UHGV virus genome: UHGV-0865506
Length of the DNA stretch: 43,204 nucleotides
From: a virus
Direction: 5' to 3' (one strand)
Part shown: piece after piece, positions 910 to 42,870 of the stretch
Layout: each line of letters begins with the position of its first letter
Position numbering within the stretch: the stretch's first letter is position 1
Notes under the pieces: generated by a model
Databases searched by the model: none
Told to the model about the DNA's origin: nothing
What the model saw: the letters and a program-made list of their open reading frames with translations, nothing else
Program-made: the position numbers and the translations under genes

Positions 910-944
910 AACCCTCACTCCTCTGTCTCGTTCCAATAAGTGAA

Positions 945-972
945 TAGTATCCTATTATGTTGGGGTGCGCAA
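945..972 (-). promoter_or_regulatory. sigma70-like promoter, TTGCGC-N17-TACTAT, member of the TACTATTCA family
   Basis: Reverse complement reads TTGCGCACCCCAACATAATAGGATACTATTCA; near-identical motif at 23504, 32569 and 42842. Confidence 0.45.
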
Positions 973-1136
973 GAGAATAGTTACGTTGCCGTTGTGATTC
1001 TTTCGTTTCTTAAAAGAGTACGCAACGCAGTGGGTGGGCGTTAGCCCACCCCAGCGGAGTGAAGTACTCTCTACCTTGCTCACGGCAACTATAGAAACTT
1101 TTAATTATCAGTGACTTGGATATTTAGGCGGGATTA

Positions 1137-1290
1137 ACAATAGACTTTGACCCTTCCGAAAGCGTCAGCGGAACTACACTCAAGTGCCTAATGGCACGCG
1201 TTGCGTTCCCTGCCGCTCCGCGGTCGCTTGCGATATCTCACAAGCTCAGTGAAGCTTAGCATATTTTTAAGTAAAAGTCAATACTAGTAG
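1137..1290. repeat. conserved intergenic element, copy 1 (structured leader with embedded minus-strand promoter)
   Basis: About 150 bp, roughly 80% identical to 32359..32512, with compensatory changes in a hairpin (GTGCC-TAAT-GGCAC here, GGAC-TTAC-GTCC in copy 2). Confidence 0.6.
1253..1281 (-). promoter_or_regulatory. sigma70-like promoter TTGACT-N17-TAAGCT inside repeat copy 1
   Basis: Minus-strand hexamers with 17-nt spacer, conserved in both repeat copies. Confidence 0.4.
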
Positions 1291-6002: not shown

Positions 6003-7264
6003 TTTTAAAGGAACGCGGCGGCAATAACGACGTACACGCTTTACTGTCGCCGTCAGGCGCTAAGAAGTGGCTAAGTTGCGCCGCATCGCTGGCTTGTGAA
6101 AAAGATATTCCTAACACGTCGGGTAAATCCGCCGTTACGGGGACAGCGTGTCACACAATAGCTGAGGTACATCTAAACCAGTACATCAAAGGCACTGCGC
6201 TGCCGTTAGAGCGTGAAGTCGGTGCGTACGTGCTGGATGAGGGTAAAGGACAGATTAAGGCACTAATCAGTCCGATGAAAGGTGCGGTACTGATTACGGC
6301 TGACATGATTGAGCAGGTGCGCAAGTATACCGACTACTGTAAACCGATTATCGATGTAGCGACTTACGCCAAGCTGGAAATGCGTGTCAATCTTACTGAG
6401 GTATTGCATCCGGGATACATCCATAGCCCCGGTGGGAGGCAAGAAGAAATTCAAACCTTCGGAACCGCTGACCTTGTTGCCGTGCAGGAACTGGCCAACA
6501 CTGATGAGCACATGTTAATTATCGGCGACCTGAAAACCGGACGGCATCGTGTCGAAGCGAAAGAAAACAAGCAGCTTATGCTTTACGCTCTCGGTGTTTA
6601 TCGCCGACTCAAGAGACGTTATAACATAACAACCGTTCGTCTGGTCATCTTCCAGCCGTACGCGGGCGGTGCGTCGGAGTGGGACATCTCGGTTGAAGGT
6701 CTGGAACTGTTCGCTAAGTTCGCCCAGAAGCGCGCACTGTTAGCGCTTGATGCGTATTTCCGCGGTAAGAAGAACCTGAAAGCGTCGGACTTCAAGCCGT
6801 CGGTAGATGGTTGTCAGTGGTGTCGGTTCTCAGAACAGTGCGCAGCGCGTACAAAAACCGTTAACGCGGTACTGGCGGAAGAACTGGAGGACGACTTTGC
6901 TCTTGAAATGACACCTGAGCAACTCGTAGCTGAGTATGAGAAGTTGCCGTTGTTGCGCCAGCACATCGACAAGGTTGAGAAAGCTATGGCTGCCGCGCTG
7001 CATTCGGGTAAGAAAGTTCCGGGGTACAAGCTGGTTGAAGGTCGCCCGGGTAATCGTGCATGGAAAGACACTGATGCGGTATTCGAGAAGTACGGTACTA
7101 TGCTGCAAAAGGTAGTGCTCATGACGCCAACCGAAGCTGTTAAAGTTGTGCCGGAAGAAGAACTGAAAGACTTCATTACTCGTAAGCCAGGAGCGCCGTG
7201 CGTCACAACGGCAGATGACAAACGGCCTGAGTGGAATCAGGTAACAGAGGAGGATTTGGAATGA
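5999..7264 (+). CDS. PD-(D/E)XK nuclease, Cas4/RecB-like (DUF2800-type)
   Basis: N-terminal LSPSGAKKWLSC, central IIGDLKTG and C-terminal cysteine cluster CQWCRFSEQC are typical of Cas4-like nucleases; ATGA coupling to the upstream gene. Confidence 0.7.
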   Translation: MILKERGGNNDVHALLSPSGAKKWLSCAASLACEKDIPNTSGKSAVTGTACHTIAEVHLNQYIKGTALPLEREVGAYVLDEGKGQIKALISPMKGAVLITADMIEQVRKYTDYCKPIIDVATYAKLEMRVNLTEVLHPGYIHSPGGRQEEIQTFGTADLVAVQELANTDEHMLIIGDLKTGRHRVEAKENKQLMLYALGVYRRLKRRYNITTVRLVIFQPYAGGASEWDISVEGLELFAKFAQKRALLALDAYFRGKKNLKASDFKPSVDGCQWCRFSEQCAARTKTVNAVLAEELEDDFALEMTPEQLVAEYEKLPLLRQHIDKVEKAMAAALHSGKKVPGYKLVEGRPGNRAWKDTDAVFEKYGTMLQKVVLMTPTEAVKVVPEEELKDFITRKPGAPCVTTADDKRPEWNQVTEEDLE

Positions 7265-7761
7265 GTTTAGTTCGGGAGCGTTTCATTTATGAAAACGGGA
7301 AACTAATCTATCGCCACAATACAAAAAGAATGTTAGCTGGTCAGGAGGCAGGAAGCCTCCACCATTCAGGGTATGTGCAGATCTACATTAATCGTAAGTC
7401 CTACCAAAGAAGCCGTTTAATATGGGAGTACCACAACGGCCCTATACCTGAAGGGTTTGAGGTGGACCATATAAATGCGATAAGAAATGATGACAGGATA
7501 GAGAATCTCCAGTTAATCGCTCATAGCGATAATGTGGCTAAAGGCGGCATTCAAACCGGAAGAAGTCATAACAAAAGCGGGTACACTGGCGTGTTTTGGC
7601 GCAAAAGCCATGGTAAATGGCAGGCTGGAATTACCGTAAACGGGCAATATCGTTACCTTGGACTATTCGAAACTCCTGAACAGGCTAACGTGGCGAGAAA
7701 GAATTTTGAAAGTAATTTGCTAAAAGAAGTTGACTACCGAATAGCGAACTATTATAGTTAA
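7261..7761 (+). CDS. HNH homing endonuclease with AP2 DNA-binding domain
   Basis: HNH motifs (YHNGPIPEGFEVDHINAIRNDDRIENLQLIAHSDN) followed by an AP2-like segment (GVFWRKSHGKWQAGITVNGQYRYLGLFETPEQA). Confidence 0.8.
   Translation: MSLVRERFIYENGKLIYRHNTKRMLAGQEAGSLHHSGYVQIYINRKSYQRSRLIWEYHNGPIPEGFEVDHINAIRNDDRIENLQLIAHSDNVAKGGIQTGRSHNKSGYTGVFWRKSHGKWQAGITVNGQYRYLGLFETPEQANVARKNFESNLLKEVDYRIANYYS
7730..7758 (+). promoter_or_regulatory. sigma70 promoter TTGACT-N17-TATAGT embedded in the 3' end of the HNH gene
   Basis: Near-consensus hexamers; part of a 32-bp repeat shared with 11631..11660. Confidence 0.5.
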
Positions 7762-23503: not shown

Positions 23504-23532
23504 TTGCACACCCCAATATAATAGGGTACTAT
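23504..23532 (+). promoter_or_regulatory. sigma70-like promoter TTGCAC-N17-TACTAT (TACTATTCA family) driving the rightward cassette
   Basis: TTGCACACCCCAATATAATAGGGTACTATTCA; near-identical to 32569..32600. Confidence 0.5.
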
Positions 23533-23562
23533 TCACTTACACCAACAATGAAGGGGTTTAAA

Positions 23563-23792: not shown

Positions 23793-24932
23793 ATGGCCCA
23801 GAAGAAAATAACCGACGAACAGTTACAGGAAGAATTGAACGCCGGGATGAAGAATGTAGACATCGCCCGTAAATACGGCATCTCAGACCGCGTAATTCGT
23901 ATCCGTAAAGCGAAGCTGGCAAAGAAAGGCGTAGGTCACGGGCGTGATGTTAGTCACCTTGTACCGGACGGCTACAAGATTAAAGGGACGTCGTCCCTGG
24001 TGGACGAGTTTGGCAACACTAAGTTGCAATGGGTTAAGACCGACACCGATGCCGAACGTCAGGTCGAGTTGATGAAAGCCGTGATTGAAGGTATGAAGTC
24101 AGAGATTACACCGGTTGCGCCTGTTAAACCTGTTCGCGCCAAACGTGACGATAAACTGCTCAATCTCTACACTGTATCTGATTTCCATCTCGGTATGCTT
24201 GCATGGGCTGACGAGAGCGGCGATGACTGGGATATGAAGATTGCAGAAGACCTGTTCTCCCGCTGGTTCGATGCCGCGTTTCAGAAAGCACCGGATGCGG
24301 GGACTGGGGTTATTAACCTGCTGGGCGACTTCGCGCACTTCGATAGTCTTGATGCCGTTACCCCTGAGTCGCGTCATGTGTTAGACGCCGATACTCGCTA
24401 TCAGAAACTAGTTCGCTACATGATTCGTATGGTGCGTCGTGTTGTCGATATGGCGCTTGTTAAACATCACACAGTCAAACTTTTAATAGTTCAAGGTAAC
24501 CACGACCCTGTAGGCTCTGTATGGCTCGCCGAAATGTTCTGTACATTGTACGACAACGAACCTCGCGTATTTGTGGACACCTCCCCAGACGTATACAAGA
24601 TGGTCCAGCACGGGAAAACTACGCTATTCATGCATCATGGACACCGTGCGAGATTCGACGCCATAGAGTCAGTAATGATTTCTAAATTCCGTAAGGCTTT
24701 TGGAGAAAGCACATACAGCTACGCTCATGTAGGGCATCTACATCATCAGAAATTAGTAGAAAGCCGCAATATGGTAGTCGAACAACACCGAACCCTGGCT
24801 GCGAAAGATGCTTACGCATCGCGAGGGGGCTGGATGTCCGGTCGTAGTGCTAACGTGATAACTTATAGTGCCGAATATGGGGAGGTGGCACGTTTAACAA
24901 TATCACCAGAAATGATAGGGGGTATAAATTGA
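23793..24932 (+). CDS. calcineurin-like metallophosphoesterase with N-terminal helix-turn-helix-like region
   Basis: Motifs DFHLG, GDFAHFD, GNHD, HHGH and GHLHH match the metallophosphoesterase signature; N-terminus resembles an HTH. Confidence 0.65.
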   Translation: MAQKKITDEQLQEELNAGMKNVDIARKYGISDRVIRIRKAKLAKKGVGHGRDVSHLVPDGYKIKGTSSLVDEFGNTKLQWVKTDTDAERQVELMKAVIEGMKSEITPVAPVKPVRAKRDDKLLNLYTVSDFHLGMLAWADESGDDWDMKIAEDLFSRWFDAAFQKAPDAGTGVINLLGDFAHFDSLDAVTPESRHVLDADTRYQKLVRYMIRMVRRVVDMALVKHHTVKLLIVQGNHDPVGSVWLAEMFCTLYDNEPRVFVDTSPDVYKMVQHGKTTLFMHHGHRARFDAIESVMISKFRKAFGESTYSYAHVGHLHHQKLVESRNMVVEQHRTLAAKDAYASRGGWMSGRSANVITYSAEYGEVARLTISPEMIGGIN

Positions 24933-25402
24933 CATGGAATGATGTTTACGAATACGAAAACGGGAATCTTTACGCTAAGGACAGCGTAAACCCTAAGTAC
25001 CCGAAAGGACGTAAAGTAGGGTATGTGGACCAACGAGGGTATGTAAGAACTAAACTAGGGTCAAAAATGACATTCGCCCACAGAATTATATGGGAAATGT
25101 TTAACGGAGCTATACCAGAAGGCAAGGAGATTGACCATATAAACGGTGTGAAAAGCGATAACCGTATAGAGAATCTTCGACTGTGTGACCGGCGCATAAA
25201 CTGCAAAAATGCAGCAAAGCGCAGGGATAACTCGTCTGGCGTTACCGGGGTTAGTAAAACATATAACGGTAAGTGGGTAGTTCAAATTCAATATAACGGA
25301 AATAGAATAGCCAAGCGTTTCGACAACAAAGAAGACGCCGTAAGATATGCCGAAGGTTTTTACAAAGAAAAGAAAGACTTTACTGAGAGGCACGGAAAAT
25401 GA
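24929..25402 (+). CDS. HNH homing endonuclease with AP2-like domain (third copy)
   Basis: HNH motifs (EIDHINGVKSDNRIENLR) plus AP2-like GVSKTYNGKWVVQIQYNGNRIAKRF. Confidence 0.8.
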   Translation: MTWNDVYEYENGNLYAKDSVNPKYPKGRKVGYVDQRGYVRTKLGSKMTFAHRIIWEMFNGAIPEGKEIDHINGVKSDNRIENLRLCDRRINCKNAAKRRDNSSGVTGVSKTYNGKWVVQIQYNGNRIAKRFDNKEDAVRYAEGFYKEKKDFTERHGK

Positions 25403-31753: not shown

Positions 31754-32017
31754 CTATTCCAGAATATTCCTCACGTAATCCTGCAGCATGAACACTTTCA
31801 GTCTTAGTTGCCGTATGCATTCAGCGTTCTGAACGTCGATAGCTAAATCCTCGTCCGAGTCGCTACTTGGCAGCGCCAGTTTGCACGGCGGCTGCATCAT
31901 CGTCGTATCCGGGGATGGAATTGGCGTTGGTGACAGCGCGGGACTTGAGCAGGACGCGAGCATCGTCGAAAGTGCACACGCTGCGGCCAGGCGTTTTAAT
32001 GTACTTAACGACTTCAC
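31754..32017 (-). CDS. o-spanin (Rz1-like outer-membrane lipoprotein), overlapped arrangement
   Basis: Signal peptide with lipobox (MLASC) followed by a Pro-rich segment; reading frame begins inside the i-spanin gene and extends beyond it. Confidence 0.55.
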   Translation of the reverse strand: MKSLSTLKRLAAACALSTMLASCSSPALSPTPIPSPDTTMMQPPCKLALPSSDSDEDLAIDVQNAECIRQLRLKVFMLQDYVRNILE

Positions 32018-32249
32018 GGGTAATCACCTCCGATTTCGTCTTGCCTTCGTTGTCAGCGGCTGCGGCCTTCGATTCGTCCTGCTGCTGCCGTTGTGTTTTC
32101 TTCGCTAACTCAGCCTGTGCTTTCTGCTGTTGCTGCGAAACGAGATTAGCGCGGCCTTCGCCCCAGCCGCTGCGATACTGGTAGATGCCGTGTGCGTAGG
32201 CCAGGATGATGAAACATGCTCCCGCTACGACAGTTGCTTTAAGATTCAT
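31863..32249 (-). CDS. i-spanin (Rz-like)
   Basis: N-terminal transmembrane helix followed by Gln/Ala/Lys-rich coiled coil; AAGGAGAAAC Shine-Dalgarno. Confidence 0.6.
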   Translation of the reverse strand: MNLKATVVAGACFIILAYAHGIYQYRSGWGEGRANLVSQQQQKAQAELAKKTQRQQQDESKAAAADNEGKTKSEVITREVVKYIKTPGRSVCTFDDARVLLKSRAVTNANSIPGYDDDAAAVQTGAAK

Positions 32250-32358
32250 GTTTCTCCTTTCTCGATAAGTAAAGCCCCGCCTTAAAGCGGGGCGCTAGTC
32301 CTTATCATTTAAACATAGAAACGGCGTAATCTCCGTAAACCAGTTACTTTTTACACAA

Positions 32359-32512
32359 GCAATAGACTATGGCCCTTCCGAACGCGTCAGCGTAACTACA
32401 CTCAGGACTTACGTCCCGCTCCGTTACCTGCCCGCGCCGCGGTCGCTTGTTCATACTTCACAAGCTCAGGTGGAGCTTAGCACATTTTTAGTGAAAAGTC
32501 AACTATTCGAAT
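32359..32512. repeat. conserved intergenic element, copy 2
   Basis: Homologous to 1137..1290; lies in the 5' leader region of the spanin/late operon. Confidence 0.6.
32474..32502 (-). promoter_or_regulatory. sigma70-like promoter TTGACT-N17-TAAGCT inside repeat copy 2
   Basis: Same hexamers and spacing as in copy 1. Confidence 0.4.
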
Positions 32513-32568
32513 AGTTTATTCCAACATTTACAATTAGGTGGAATAACAGGAATACGTAAACAAATAGT

Positions 32569-32597
32569 TTGCACACACCAATATAATAGGGTACTAT
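32569..32597 (+). promoter_or_regulatory. sigma70-like promoter TTGCAC-N17-TACTAT (TACTATTCA family)
   Basis: TTGCACACACCAATATAATAGGGTACTATTCA, about 28 nt upstream of the 32625 gene. Confidence 0.5.
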
Positions 32598-32624
32598 TCA
32601 GTTAACTTAAACAGGAGATGGAAA

Positions 32625-32909
32625 ATGACACACAAATTTAAAGGTACAGACGGTGCATGGGTTAATCGCGGAACGGCTATCTGGGCAGGACATGTTTATG
32701 TGGCCGAGGTAATGAGTGTGCGGGAAAATGACTCAGTAAAATTGGCTAACGCAAAACTTATTTCCTCGGCACCAGAGTTACTCGAAGCACTTCGCCAGCT
32801 TCGCGATTACGTCGAGGATGTTTGCGAGGTATCCTCCGATGATTGCCATGAAGACCATCCATTAAATCAGGCCAGCAGAGCAATTAAGAAAGCATTAGGA
32901 AAGCAATAA
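32625..32909 (+). CDS. hypothetical protein in a moron-like cassette
   Basis: AGGAGA Shine-Dalgarno; own promoter and terminator; opposite strand to the flanking late genes. Confidence 0.55.
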   Translation: MTHKFKGTDGAWVNRGTAIWAGHVYVAEVMSVRENDSVKLANAKLISSAPELLEALRQLRDYVEDVCEVSSDDCHEDHPLNQASRAIKKALGKQ

Positions 32910-32913
32910 AACT

Positions 32914-32938
32914 AAGGCCCCGTAAGGGGCCTTTTATC
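32914..32938. terminator. bidirectional rho-independent terminator
   Basis: Hairpin AAGGCCCC-GTAA-GGGGCCTT followed by TTTTAT; T-rich on the minus side as well. Confidence 0.6.
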
Positions 32939-39760: not shown

Positions 39761-40267
39761 TCAACCTTTCACCGCGCGCCCGATAGCTTCTGCCTCCCGC
39801 CATGGTTTACCGTCGAACAGTGCCAGACGTCCGGCTACGCGACGGCGTAGGCCAAGCACAGGCTCGAGTTTACCGGTTTTCGGGTTGCGTTGGTTGATGA
39901 ACTGGCTCAACTTATGCCGTAAGGTGGGGATGTCCCCGCTACGTAGTGCCTTACCGGTTCCGGTATTAGCAGCAATAACGCCAGTTCCTGCGTTAAACAC
40001 CAGGTCAACAACAGCATCAAACTGGGCCTGGGTCAGTGAGGGGTGCGCTACCTCGTCGACTGCTTTCACAGCCCACTGCATATCGCGGTTCAGTAGCAGA
40101 AGCCCCTGACCCTCAGTAATCTTCTGCCCTTCATACACATCCGGCCCGGTATGGCCCCAGCCTATAGTCCAGTATTTCTCGTTCTTTGTGGCTTTGTATG
40201 CAGTTCCGCGAAACTTCTCCCACGCTTTCTTGAACTGCAATCCATTATCTGAAATGTTTCGAGACAC
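39761..40267 (-). CDS. endolysin, GH24 lysozyme
   Basis: YWTIGWGHTG resembles the T4-lysozyme-type signature; GTG start with GGAGGA Shine-Dalgarno. Confidence 0.8.
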   Translation of the reverse strand: MSRNISDNGLQFKKAWEKFRGTAYKATKNEKYWTIGWGHTGPDVYEGQKITEGQGLLLLNRDMQWAVKAVDEVAHPSLTQAQFDAVVDLVFNAGTGVIAANTGTGKALRSGDIPTLRHKLSQFINQRNPKTGKLEPVLGLRRRVAGRLALFDGKPWREAEAIGRAVKG

Positions 40268-40517
40268 GCTTATGTCCTCCGTATGACAGCCACGCCTGGC
40301 GAATCTGGCGCAGCGCAACTAATGTGATTAATGTCTCAGGCAGCGTTGGTGACATGCTGCCCTGTAACAGGTGGATACATCCGGCGGCGCAGACGATAGC
40401 TGTCAGGATATAGAGCACCCGACCGAACAGCCCGTCGTCCACGCTGGGGTGATAAACATTAAACAGCGATGTGCCTCCGATTGCCAGCATACCGCCGAAC
40501 CAGAATAACTCATTCAT
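40245..40517 (-). CDS. holin-like membrane protein (possible second holin or antiholin)
   Basis: Two hydrophobic helices, immediately upstream of the endolysin gene. Confidence 0.5.
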   Translation of the reverse strand: MNELFWFGGMLAIGGTSLFNVYHPSVDDGLFGRVLYILTAIVCAAGCIHLLQGSMSPTLPETLITLVALRQIRQAWLSYGGHKRVSKHFR

Positions 40518-40818
40518 CCGGGCCTCCTCGACGTGCGATGTATTCTCCGGCGACGATGCCAGAAAGGCGGGAATAGATGGGCATCCAGAGGACAGCGATG
40601 ATAAATCCGAGGCCAGCTATCTCGCGTTCCCCGGTAATGCCGAACCATTGAGCCGCGAGGGGTGCGCCAAATACGGCGCAGGTGAAGCCAGTTGCGATAA
40701 AGCAGAAGCCGTCGATAGGGCCAGAAATAACGGACTTATGTTGTCGTAGCCCGATTACCCCTCCTGCTAGTGCGGCAGCCAGAAGCCACCCCGTCACTGT
40801 TTCAGTAAATTTATCCAA
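40510..40818 (-). CDS. holin
   Basis: Three predicted transmembrane segments and a charged C-terminus; first gene of the lysis block. Confidence 0.55.
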   Translation of the reverse strand: MDKFTETVTGWLLAAALAGGVIGLRQHKSVISGPIDGFCFIATGFTCAVFGAPLAAQWFGITGEREIAGLGFIIAVLWMPIYSRLSGIVAGEYIARRGGPDE

Positions 40819-42841: not shown

Positions 42842-42870
42842 ATAGTAGCCTATTCTATCTTAGCATGCAA
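42842..42870 (-). promoter_or_regulatory. sigma70-like promoter TTGCAT-N17-TACTAT (TACTATTCA family)
   Basis: Reverse complement reads TTGCATGCTAAGATAGAATAGGCTACTATTCA. Confidence 0.45.

What the first reader, a model, noticed from the sequence alone, without database searches (positions are those of the whole stretch)
31754..32249. Spanin pair separated by about 7.5 kb from holin and endolysin
Holin-like genes and the GH24 endolysin are at 39761..40818, whereas the overlapped i-spanin/o-spanin pair lies at 31754..32249 between head morphogenesis and scaffold genes, under the conserved leader element. This splits the lysis function across two transcription units with potentially different timing.
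Basis: partly seen in the sequence, partly recalled or inferred. Interest (0 to 1): 0.45.

Follow-up and report, generated by a model that had tools for sequence, protein, structure and literature searches.

The report
Known spanin pair in head module
The two overlapping genes are a genuine outer-membrane-disrupting spanin pair sitting 7.5 kb from the holin and endolysin, but this layout is standard and already published for this phage group; the only fresh item is a conserved structured RNA leader in front of the pair.

Summary
Observation confirmed. Window 31863..32249(-) encodes a 128-aa i-spanin with an N-terminal membrane helix. Window 31754..32017(-) encodes an 87-aa o-spanin lipoprotein (GTG start, strong Shine-Dalgarno (SD) ribosome-binding site, lipobox LAS|C, Cys23). 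The o-spanin is in the +1 frame and overlaps the i-spanin by 155 nt. Two holins and a GH24 endolysin lie 7,511 nt upstream on the same strand.

The window is a Kagunavirus (Guernseyvirinae) genome. The pair belongs to the published 'Jersey' overlapped spanin family (Kongari 2018, which lists K1G, K1H and K1ind1-3). The same position, between the Hoc-like head decoration gene and the scaffold gene, occurs in Jerseyvirus, Cornellvirus and, without the leader, Dhillonvirus. Kagunavirus papers already note that the spanins are apart from the holin and endolysin, and T4 is the textbook precedent. So the finding is ordinary and already known.

The 'separate transcription unit' idea is supported by sequence only. 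A bidirectional terminator follows the Hoc-like gene. A near-consensus extended -10 promoter lies 225 nt upstream of the i-spanin. Timing is untested, and spanins are gated by peptidoglycan anyway.

In passing, I found that the leader is a covariation-supported, roughly 115-nt three-helix RNA with no Rfam match. It is 98% identical across genera whose spanin genes are about 72% identical, and this genome carries a second copy. Its function is unknown; a transcription read-through control element is my leading guess.

The parts
31863..32249 (-). i-spanin gene (128 aa; N-terminal transmembrane helix about residues 1-23; Gln/Lys-rich helical periplasmic domain; conserved Cys92)
   Evidence: ORF. 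phrog_2536 Rz-like spanin, E=3.8e-55, full length. Hydropathy peak 1.72 at residues 5-23. 65% identity to phage Jersey gp09, with Cys92 invariant.
31754..32017 (-). o-spanin gene (87 aa precursor; signal peptide with lipobox L-A-S-C, Cys23; Ser at +2; conserved Cys45 and Cys67). It is in the +1 frame and overlaps the i-spanin by 155 nt.
   Evidence: ORF. phrog_5672 E=4e-30 and phrog_1267 E=4e-17. Match to a PROSITE PS51257-like lipobox pattern, and an in-frame stop two codons upstream of the GTG. Cys23, Cys45 and Cys67 invariant in Jersey, SP-031, St162 and KarlBarth. ATG at the equivalent site in Jersey, SP-031, St162 and KarlBarth.
32025..32031 (-). Shine-Dalgarno sequence GGAGGTG for the o-spanin GTG start, lying inside the i-spanin reading frame
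   Evidence: Sequence read directly.
32274..32293 (-). GC-rich hairpin GCCCCGCU-UUAA-GGCGGGGC followed by UUUACUUAUC, 24 nt before the i-spanin ATG. It is terminator-like or a 5' stabiliser. A hairpin is kept at this position, with different sequences, in Jersey, SS3e, Kenya-K24 and SP-031.
   Evidence: Terminator scan. Alignment A4 shows the arms changing together: GCCCGGC/GCCGGGC and GCCCGAC/GTCGGGC.
32357..32473 (-). Structured leader RNA core, spanin-proximal copy. It has P1 (CCU/AGG), stem-loop SL1 (GCUUGU/ACAAGC), a long stem-loop SL2 with a covarying apical hairpin, and a conserved tail UUCGGAAGGGCC..GUCUAUUG.
   Evidence: Covariance model R1 hit of 132 bits. Pair counts: 94.6% of cells paired against 31-46% in slid controls, and 14 of 28 pairs changed on both sides. 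No Rfam family.
32474..32502 (-). Sigma-70-type promoter for the leader-spanin-scaffold-capsid unit: -35 TTGACT, 17-nt spacer ending in TGc (extended -10), -10 TAAGCT. The A/T-rich palindrome CTATTCGAATAG lies just upstream (32503..32514).
   Evidence: The pattern occurs exactly twice in the window, with 0 expected. Coordinates checked. Conserved in all copies in alignments A3 and A4.
32914..32933 (.). Bidirectional intrinsic terminator between the Hoc-like head decoration gene (minus strand) and the convergent plus-strand moron. It marks the probable end of the upstream late unit.
   Evidence: Terminator scan, 8-bp stem with a T-run on both strands. An equivalent hairpin follows the Hoc-like gene in Jersey and SETP13.
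32625..32909 (+). Opposite-strand accessory gene (94 aa, phrog_1273, unknown function) with its own promoter (32569..32604). It occupies a variable slot upstream of the leader.
   Evidence: The same slot holds endonuclease VII in SETP13, a PAPS reductase in SP-031 and a methyltransferase in S102.
1135..1281 (-). Second copy of the promoter plus leader RNA. It is followed by the hairpin GGGTGGGC-TAAC-GCCCACCC (1051..1032) and then a second promoter (972..937). On the circular map it points toward the gene array that contains the holins and endolysin, about 3.7 kb downstream.
   Evidence: Repeat D4, alignment, R1 hit of 95.5 bits at 1135..1252, promoter match, coordinates.
40510..40818 (-). Holin 1 (102 aa, two hydrophobic segments)
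   Evidence: phrog_2359 holin, E=5e-29; hydropathy.
40245..40517 (-). Holin 2 (90 aa)
   Evidence: phrog_2508 holin, E=2e-33; hydropathy.
39761..40318 (-). GH24 endolysin. The longest ORF is given here; the likely start is the GTG at 40267. There is no N-terminal hydrophobic segment, so it is not a signal-anchor-release (SAR) endolysin.
   Evidence: PF00959, E=5e-24; no transmembrane-like segment; GTG checked.
42842..42870 (-). Promoter of a different class (TTGCAT-N17-TACTAT, overlapping the palindrome AATAGgctaCTATT) that heads the unit containing the holins and endolysin
   Evidence: Palindrome count: 8 exact plus 4 one-mismatch sites against 1.1 expected. Sequence context. Coordinates.

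Best explanation
The locus encodes a two-component spanin of the published 'Jersey' family, in the overlapped gene architecture.

The i-spanin is anchored in the inner membrane by its N-terminal helix. The o-spanin is exported, lipidated on Cys23 and, having Ser at +2, sorted to the outer membrane. Their periplasmic domains join across the periplasm, and conserved cysteines (i-spanin C92; o-spanin C45 and C67) allow covalent homodimers. Once the holins release the endolysin and the peptidoglycan is degraded, the complex fuses the inner and outer membranes as the last step of lysis. These mechanistic steps are inferred from family membership and established spanin biology; they are not shown here.

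The pair is not part of the holin-endolysin cassette. It is the first cistron of the scaffold, major capsid and downstream structural unit, and that position is ancestral to Guernseyvirinae and Dhillonvirus.

In this phage the unit most likely starts at its own strong sigma-70 promoter (32502..32474). It then runs through a conserved structured leader RNA and a terminator-like hairpin before the i-spanin ribosome-binding site. Spanin synthesis would therefore be tied to head-protein synthesis rather than to the holin. This is tolerated because spanins are held inactive by the intact cell wall, so the holin alone sets lysis time.
For: - Family membership: phrog_2536 at E=3.8e-55 and phrog_5672/phrog_1267 at E=4e-30/4e-17. 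The pair is 65-66% identical to Jersey gp09/gp10, with identical gene lengths (387 and 264 nt) and an identical 155-nt overlap. Kongari 2018 lists K1G, K1H and K1ind1-3 in the Jersey overlapped family and notes conserved Cys45 and Cys67.
- Topology: a transmembrane helix at the i-spanin N-terminus; a lipobox LAS|C with basic residues before it, and Ser at +2.
- o-spanin start: a strong SD sequence 8 nt upstream and no earlier start possible. Relatives have ATG at the same site.
- Position: the same gene order is seen in Bas70, Jersey, SETP13 and SP-031. In Dhillonvirus KarlBarth the spanin sits directly after the minor capsid gene.
- Transcription unit: a terminator after the Hoc-like gene, a dedicated promoter, and a different promoter class for the holin unit.
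Against: - There are no transcript or protein data for any Guernseyvirinae phage in the searchable literature.
- The simple promoter scan did not flag the leader promoter, because its -10 (TAAGCT) scores below that scan's rule.
- The hairpin before the spanin could terminate most transcripts. Expression might then depend on read-through from far upstream or on an unknown factor.
- Coiled-coil content and complex formation were not tested.
Confidence: 0.85

Rival explanations
1. There is no real split. Holins, endolysin, packaging and head genes and the spanins are all read as one long late transcript from promoters upstream of 42.8 kb. The element before the spanins only boosts or processes that transcript, so all lysis genes have the same timing.
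For: All these genes are on the same strand and in the same order as transcription. In Dhillonvirus the homologous spanin directly follows the minor capsid gene, overlapping it by 8 nt, with no promoter or leader. The predicted internal terminators other than 32933..32914 are weak, and the total number of terminator-like sites is no higher than in shuffled sequence.
Against: An 8-bp GC-rich bidirectional terminator and a convergent plus-strand gene sit between the Hoc-like gene and the spanins. A near-consensus -35 plus extended -10 promoter is conserved in front of the leader in three genera.
Confidence: 0.25
2. The second gene is only the 47-aa product from the internal ATG (Met41), as annotated in many GenBank records. 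It would then have no signal peptide or lipobox, and the pair would not be a canonical i-/o-spanin.
For: Bas70, K-02 and SETP13 annotate a 144-nt gene (S102 147 nt). The phrog_5672 profile covers only residues 41-87.
Against: The GTG at 32017 has a GGAGGTG SD sequence 8 nt upstream. The upstream 40 codons are conserved as a signal peptide with an invariant lipobox Cys across four genera. Relatives carry ATG at that exact site. phrog_1267 matches residues 8-86. Kongari 2018 curates the full-length lipoproteins.
Confidence: 0.03
3. The leader, hairpin and spanin block is a mobile or frequently exchanged cassette. On this view its place in the head module reflects a recombination hot spot rather than any regulatory logic.
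For: The slot just upstream holds unrelated opposite-strand genes in different phages. The 243-nt leader is 98.4% identical between this coliphage and Salmonella phage SETP13, while the adjacent spanin genes are 71-74% identical. Two leader types (this window's spanin-proximal type and the Jersey type) occur at the same site within Jerseyvirus.
Against: The spanin position itself is constant across Kagunavirus, Jerseyvirus, Cornellvirus and Dhillonvirus. No repeats, integrase or homing endonuclease flank the pair in this window. Exchange of the leader does not explain why the spanins are there.
Confidence: 0.15

Closest known systems
Salmonella phage Jersey gp09/gp10: the 'Jersey' i-spanin and o-spanin families, overlapped architecture (Kongari et al. 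2018, PMC6139136)
   Same: Same gene lengths (387 and 264 nt), same 155-nt overlap and same +1 frame. 65-66% amino-acid identity. Same transmembrane helix, lipobox Cys23, Cys45, Cys67 and i-spanin Cys92. Same position between the Hoc-like and scaffold genes. The Kagunavirus phages K1G, K1H and K1ind1-3 are listed as family members.
   Different: GTG instead of ATG as the o-spanin start. The leader RNA upstream is of a different sequence type.
Phage lambda Rz/Rz1 in the S-R-Rz/Rz1 lysis cassette
   Same: A two-component spanin: a type II inner-membrane protein plus an outer-membrane lipoprotein encoded in the +1 frame of the same DNA. Periplasmic cysteines are present. The presumed membrane-fusion role is the same.
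   Different: The architecture is overlapped rather than embedded. There is no Pfam-level sequence similarity. The pair is not adjacent to the holin and endolysin; it lies 7.5 kb away in the head module.
Phage T4 pseT.3/pseT.2 spanins
   Same: The spanin genes are not linked to the holin (t) and endolysin (e). This is stated explicitly in Kongari 2018 and shows that split lysis genes are a known arrangement.
   Different: T4 spanins have the separated architecture, belong to a different sequence family, and sit among early/middle genes rather than in the head module.
Lambda PR'-6S RNA-tR' late leader, and HK022 putL/putR antiterminator RNAs (for the leader element only)
   Same: A strong promoter is followed at once by a structured transcript and a terminator-like hairpin, ahead of lysis and head genes (as in lambda). 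There are two related copies per genome, each directly downstream of a promoter, with stem-loops whose arms covary (as in put, described in PMC9378689).
   Different: No sequence or structure match: model R1 finds nothing in the HK022 genome. The core is about 115 nt with three helices, against about 70 nt with two. No Q-like protein is annotated in relatives. The function is untested.

Membership tests
Two-component spanin (i-spanin/o-spanin) | i-spanin: a single N-terminal transmembrane helix, with the rest of the protein periplasmic | tested here: met
   Kyte-Doolittle 19-residue window peaks at 1.72 for residues 5-23, and there is no other hydrophobic segment.
Two-component spanin (i-spanin/o-spanin) | o-spanin: signal peptidase II signal with a lipobox and an invariant Cys | tested here: met
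   MKSLSTLKRLAAACALSTMLAS|C matches a PS51257-like pattern. The Cys is invariant in five phages from four genera. LipoP and SignalP themselves were not available.
Two-component spanin (i-spanin/o-spanin) | Outer-membrane sorting: the residue after the lipidated Cys is not Asp | tested here: met
   The mature N-terminus is C-S-S.
Two-component spanin (i-spanin/o-spanin) | The o-spanin gene is embedded in, overlapping or adjacent to the i-spanin gene | tested here: met
   155-nt overlap in the +1 frame, which is the overlapped class.
Two-component spanin (i-spanin/o-spanin) | Periplasmic cysteines for intermolecular disulfides | tested here: met
   i-spanin Cys92 and o-spanin Cys45 and Cys67 are invariant. 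Kongari 2018 reports the same positions 45 and 67.
Two-component spanin (i-spanin/o-spanin) | Helical or coiled-coil periplasmic domain in the i-spanin | not tested
   Only composition was seen (QQQQKAQAELAKKTQRQQQ). No coiled-coil or structure prediction was run.
Two-component spanin (i-spanin/o-spanin) | Required for outer-membrane disruption; complements lambda Rz/Rz1 | not testable with these tools
   This needs genetics.
'Jersey' spanin sequence family (Kongari 2018) | Sequence homology to Jersey gp09/gp10 over the full length | tested here: met
   65% (i-spanin) and 66% (o-spanin) identity. tblastn finds 627 phage records, dominated by Salmonella and Escherichia Guernseyvirinae.
Contiguous lambda-type lysis cassette (holin-endolysin-spanin) | Spanin genes adjacent to the endolysin and holin | tested here: not met
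   7,511 nt and more than ten genes lie between them. A distant relative, Klebsiella phage Kp4886-1, does have the i-spanin homologue directly after a lysozyme gene.
HK022 put antiterminator RNA (considered for the leader) | Sequence and structure homology to putL/putR | tested here: not met
   Model R1 gives no hit at E<=1 in the whole HK022 genome. The reciprocal test with a put model was not possible.
HK022 put antiterminator RNA (considered for the leader) | Nascent RNA binds the RNA polymerase beta' zinc-binding domain and suppresses downstream terminators in cis | not testable with these tools
   This needs in vitro transcription or reporter assays.
Any Rfam 15 family (for the leader) | Score at or above a family's gathering threshold | tested here: not met
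   No match on the whole window. The best sub-threshold hit was wcaG at 19 bits against a threshold of 42, partly overlapping the core's 3' tail.

The most novel reading that the evidence does not exclude
The spanin pair is the first cistron behind a previously undescribed, Guernseyvirinae-specific structured RNA. It consists of a strong extended -10 promoter, a roughly 115-nt three-helix core and a terminator-like hairpin. I propose that it acts in cis as a transcription read-through switch, either put-like or like lambda PR'-tR', for the spanin-scaffold-capsid late unit. In genomes with a second copy, such as this one, it would also act on the gene array that leads to the holins and endolysin, putting both halves of the lysis function under the same RNA device.
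Probability: 0.25. Interest if true: 0.55.

Novelty: already known. Interest (0 to 1): 0.15.

Why it matters
The finding as stated adds nothing new. Spanins placed away from the holin and endolysin are known from T4. The placement is the rule in Guernseyvirinae and Dhillonvirus, and it is mentioned in Kagunavirus genome papers.

It has two practical uses. First, it flags a widespread annotation error: the o-spanin is truncated to 47 aa wherever its start codon is GTG. Second, it points to an unannotated, unusually conserved structured leader RNA. If that RNA is shown to control terminator read-through, it would be a new example of RNA-based late-gene control in virulent siphophages that depend on host RNA polymerase.

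Tried and rejected
- Pfam on both spanins gave no family; PHROGs was needed instead.
- Rfam gave nothing at gathering thresholds on the whole window and only chance-level hits at relaxed thresholds on both leader copies. No tRNA or tmRNA was found.
- I considered that the leader is a small protein gene, the 36-aa ORF 32344..32454(-) annotated as 'hypothetical' in relatives. I rejected this: the second copy has no ATG and carries frame-breaking indels, Jersey has a different ORF over the same RNA, and the base pairs covary.
- I tested for homology to HK022 put RNA by running model R1 on the HK022 genome. There was no hit.
- The genome-contig scan for the leader gave 7 pattern hits. Six were chance matches in GC-rich MAGs. 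One is a true hit (118 bits) on a 6.2-kb contig labelled as a Bacillota MAG, probably a mis-binned phage fragment. The element is therefore not a host RNA.
- The palindrome CTATTnnAATAG upstream of the promoter is not over-represented (2 sites against 1.2 expected), so I make no operator claim for it.
- Literature searches for transcriptomes or promoter maps of Guernseyvirinae found only software predictions.
- The Sciku genome announcement does not mention spanins. One paper query failed on a term that was too short.

Full report
**What the window is.** The 2.5 kb around the finding is 92-94% identical to many Escherichia phages of the genus Kagunavirus (subfamily Guernseyvirinae) and matches 491 phage records in all, mostly Salmonella Jerseyviruses. 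The window length of 43.2 kb equals a whole genome of this group. Relatives such as Bas70 are deposited as circular maps.

**Checking the observation.** The two ORFs are exactly as described: 31863..32249(-), 128 aa, and 31754..32017(-), 87 aa. They overlap by 155 nt, with the second gene in the +1 frame. The i-spanin start lies 7,511 nt downstream of the endolysin stop on the same strand.
- The first product matches PHROG 2536 'Rz-like spanin' over its full length (E=3.8e-55). The second matches PHROG 5672 (E=4e-30) and 1267 (E=4e-17).
- The upstream lysis genes are real: two holins (phrog_2359 and phrog_2508) and a PF00959 (GH24) lysozyme with no hydrophobic N-terminus.
- The immediate neighbours are a Hoc-like head decoration gene plus a plus-strand accessory gene upstream, and the scaffold gene downstream. 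The Mu-F-like head morphogenesis gene is one step further up.

**Are they spanins by the defining features?**
- The i-spanin has one N-terminal hydrophobic helix (residues about 5-23) and a Gln/Lys/Ala-rich remainder.
- The o-spanin frame is closed by a stop two codons before the GTG at 32017, and that GTG is preceded by GGAGGTG at the right distance.
- The o-spanin product begins MKSLSTLKRLAAACALSTMLAS|CSS, a classical lipoprotein signal with Ser at +2.
- In alignments with phages Jersey, FSL SP-031, St162 and KarlBarth, the lipobox Cys23, Cys45 and Cys67 are invariant, as is i-spanin Cys92.
- Jersey, SP-031, St162 and KarlBarth have ATG at the site where this phage, Bas70 and SETP13 have GTG.
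The 47-aa 'Rz-like spanin' annotated in many records is a start-codon artefact.

**What is already known.**
- Kongari et al. 2018 define 'Jersey' i- and o-spanin families of 27 phages in the overlapped class. They list K1G, K1H and K1ind1-3 (Kagunavirus), give a 155-bp overlap for Jersey, and note conserved Cys45 and Cys67. All of this matches the present pair.
- The same paper points out that the T4 spanins are not near the T4 holin and endolysin.
[quoted passage not shown] The Golestan and SeF1 papers list the same split.
- The order Hoc-like gene, spanins, scaffold is found in Jersey, SETP13, SP-031 and Bas70.
- In Dhillonvirus KarlBarth the homologous pair directly follows the minor capsid gene.
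- A distant homologue in Klebsiella phage Kp4886-1 follows a lysozyme gene, the classical layout.
- The finding is thus a correct description of a known, conserved arrangement.

**Transcription units (inferred from sequence only).**
- Downstream of the Hoc-like gene is an 8-bp GC-rich hairpin with T-runs on both strands (32914..32933). It is shared with the convergent plus-strand gene 32625..32909, which has its own promoter.
- At 32502..32474 on the minus strand lies TTGACT-N17-TAAGCT, with TG at the extended -10 position.
- This promoter type occurs only twice in the genome (0 expected). The other copy is at 1281..1253.
- Most other promoter-like sites of the phage carry the palindrome AATAG-N4-CTATT over the -10 region: 8 exact and 4 one-mismatch sites against 1.1 expected. 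These include the promoter at 42870..42842 that heads the array containing the holins and endolysin.
- The spanins and the holin/endolysin genes therefore do appear to sit behind different promoter classes. No experimental transcript data were found.

**The leader.** Between the promoter and the i-spanin lie about 225 nt. The first roughly 115 nt are repeated at 1135..1252 with about 80% identity and with indels that destroy the 36-aa ORF annotated there in relatives.
- Independent folds of the variants seen in Kagunavirus and Jerseyvirus give the same architecture. There is a short closing helix (CCU/AGG), a 6-bp hairpin SL1, and a long hairpin SL2. The apical stem of SL2 has quite different sequences (CGGGAC/GUCCUG, GUGCC/GGCAC, GCACG/CGUGU, GGGCGU/ACGCCC). 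A conserved tail UUCGGAAGGG.C follows. The Cornellvirus SP-031 leader folded differently, and I read the same elements in it only by eye.
- A covariance model built from seven Kagunavirus variants recovers the Jersey-type leaders at E of about 1e-7 to 1e-9.
- On the resulting alignment 94.6% of cells are paired, against 31-46% when partners are slid. Fourteen of 28 pairs show double changes, against 2-5. The covariation score is 0.266, against 0.086 or less. The caveat is that this alignment is fitted to the model.
- There is no Rfam match and no hit in HK022.
- In IMG/VR, 59 of the 63 matching stretches carry the element, nearly all on contigs of 40-45 kb typical of Guernseyvirinae. Several contigs carry two copies.
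- It is absent from bacterial genomes, apart from one probable mis-binned phage contig.
- The 243-nt promoter-to-hairpin segment is 98.4% identical between this coliphage and Salmonella phage SETP13. The adjoining spanin genes are only 71-74% identical, and the Hoc-like and scaffold genes 83-87%.
- The spanin-proximal copy is present in 181 phage records. About 20 records carry a second copy closely matching this window's, and a few more a diverged one. Bas70 has only the spanin-proximal copy.
- A GC-rich hairpin directly before the spanin ribosome-binding site is also kept through compensatory changes. Its U-tract is good here (UUUACUUAU) but poor in Jersey and absent in SP-031.

[quoted passage not shown] Only the sequence prerequisites are shown here.

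For expression, I commit to the pair being the first cistron of the scaffold-capsid unit, driven by its own promoter through the structured leader. My estimates for what the leader does:
- control of read-through at the following hairpin and later terminators, put-like or PR'-tR'-like: about 0.25-0.35
- a processing or stability element, for example an RNase III site: about 0.2
- a trans-acting small RNA: about 0.2
- something else: the remainder

None of these is tested here.

**Verdict.** The split from holin and endolysin is real but ordinary and published. The separate-unit idea is plausible from sequence, and timing is unknown and of little mechanistic weight. Interest is low. The leader RNA is the only potentially new element and deserves its own follow-up.

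Noticed in passing
window 32268..32502 (-) and 1032..1281 (-): There are two copies of a promoter plus structured leader RNA plus GC-rich hairpin. The RNA core has strong covariation support, no Rfam family, and is found only in Guernseyvirinae-like phages. The spanin-proximal copy is 98.4% identical to that of Salmonella phage SETP13, although the flanking genes are 71-87% identical.
   Followed up: yes
window 32344..32454 (-): A 36-aa ORF lies inside the leader RNA and is annotated as 'hypothetical protein' in relatives such as Bas70_0007 and K-02. Jersey gp08 covers the same RNA in another frame. These are almost certainly spurious gene calls over a non-coding RNA.
   Followed up: yes
window 31754..32017 (-); L002 5839..5982; L005 2424..2567; L001 9755..9898: In many GenBank records the o-spanin is annotated as a 47-aa protein starting at an internal ATG, because the true start is GTG. 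This removes the signal peptide and lipobox. The PHROG 5672 profile (47 positions) seems to be built from these truncated calls.
   Followed up: yes
window 943, 4669, 7740, 11642, 23520, 32585, 42841, 43154 (14-nt sites): The palindrome AATAG-N4-CTATT overlaps the -10 region of most promoter-like sites: 8 exact and 4 one-mismatch sites against 1.1 expected. It looks like a shared operator or promoter signature, and corresponds to the 'phage promoter' consensus reported by PHIRE in the fBC-Eco01 paper, although this phage group has no RNA polymerase gene annotated.
   Followed up: partly
window 32569..32933 (+): This is a self-contained opposite-strand moron: a promoter (a near-identical copy of the ones at 23504..23539 and 937..972), a 94-aa gene of unknown function (phrog_1273), and a bidirectional terminator. 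The same slot holds endonuclease VII, a PAPS reductase or a DNA methyltransferase in other Guernseyvirinae.
   Followed up: partly
window 32262..32273 (-) compared with 937..945 (-) and 23533..23545 (+): The short 5'-UTR box ACTTATCGA(G/A)A, lying between the hairpin and the i-spanin ribosome-binding site, resembles the initial transcribed sequence (TTCACTTA...) of the TTGCAC-type promoters. The full ACTTATCGAAA box is seen at this promoter in relatives (alignment A3); the window's own copies have ACTTATTGGAA (~932..942) and ACTTACACC (~23533..23545). Its meaning is unknown.
   Followed up: no
window 7435..7508 and 25103..25176 (+): A 74-nt direct repeat with 73% identity lies within two ORFs on the plus strand (7231..7761 and 24929..25402). 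The motif (..DHINGxxxDNRIENL..) looks like two paralogous HNH homing-endonuclease genes.
   Followed up: no
L081 2130..2248 (JAEWLW010000073.1, 'MAG: Bacillota bacterium'): A 6.2-kb contig binned into a Bacillota MAG carries a full-score (118-bit) copy of the leader RNA. It is most likely a Kagunavirus-like phage fragment that was mis-binned.
   Followed up: partly
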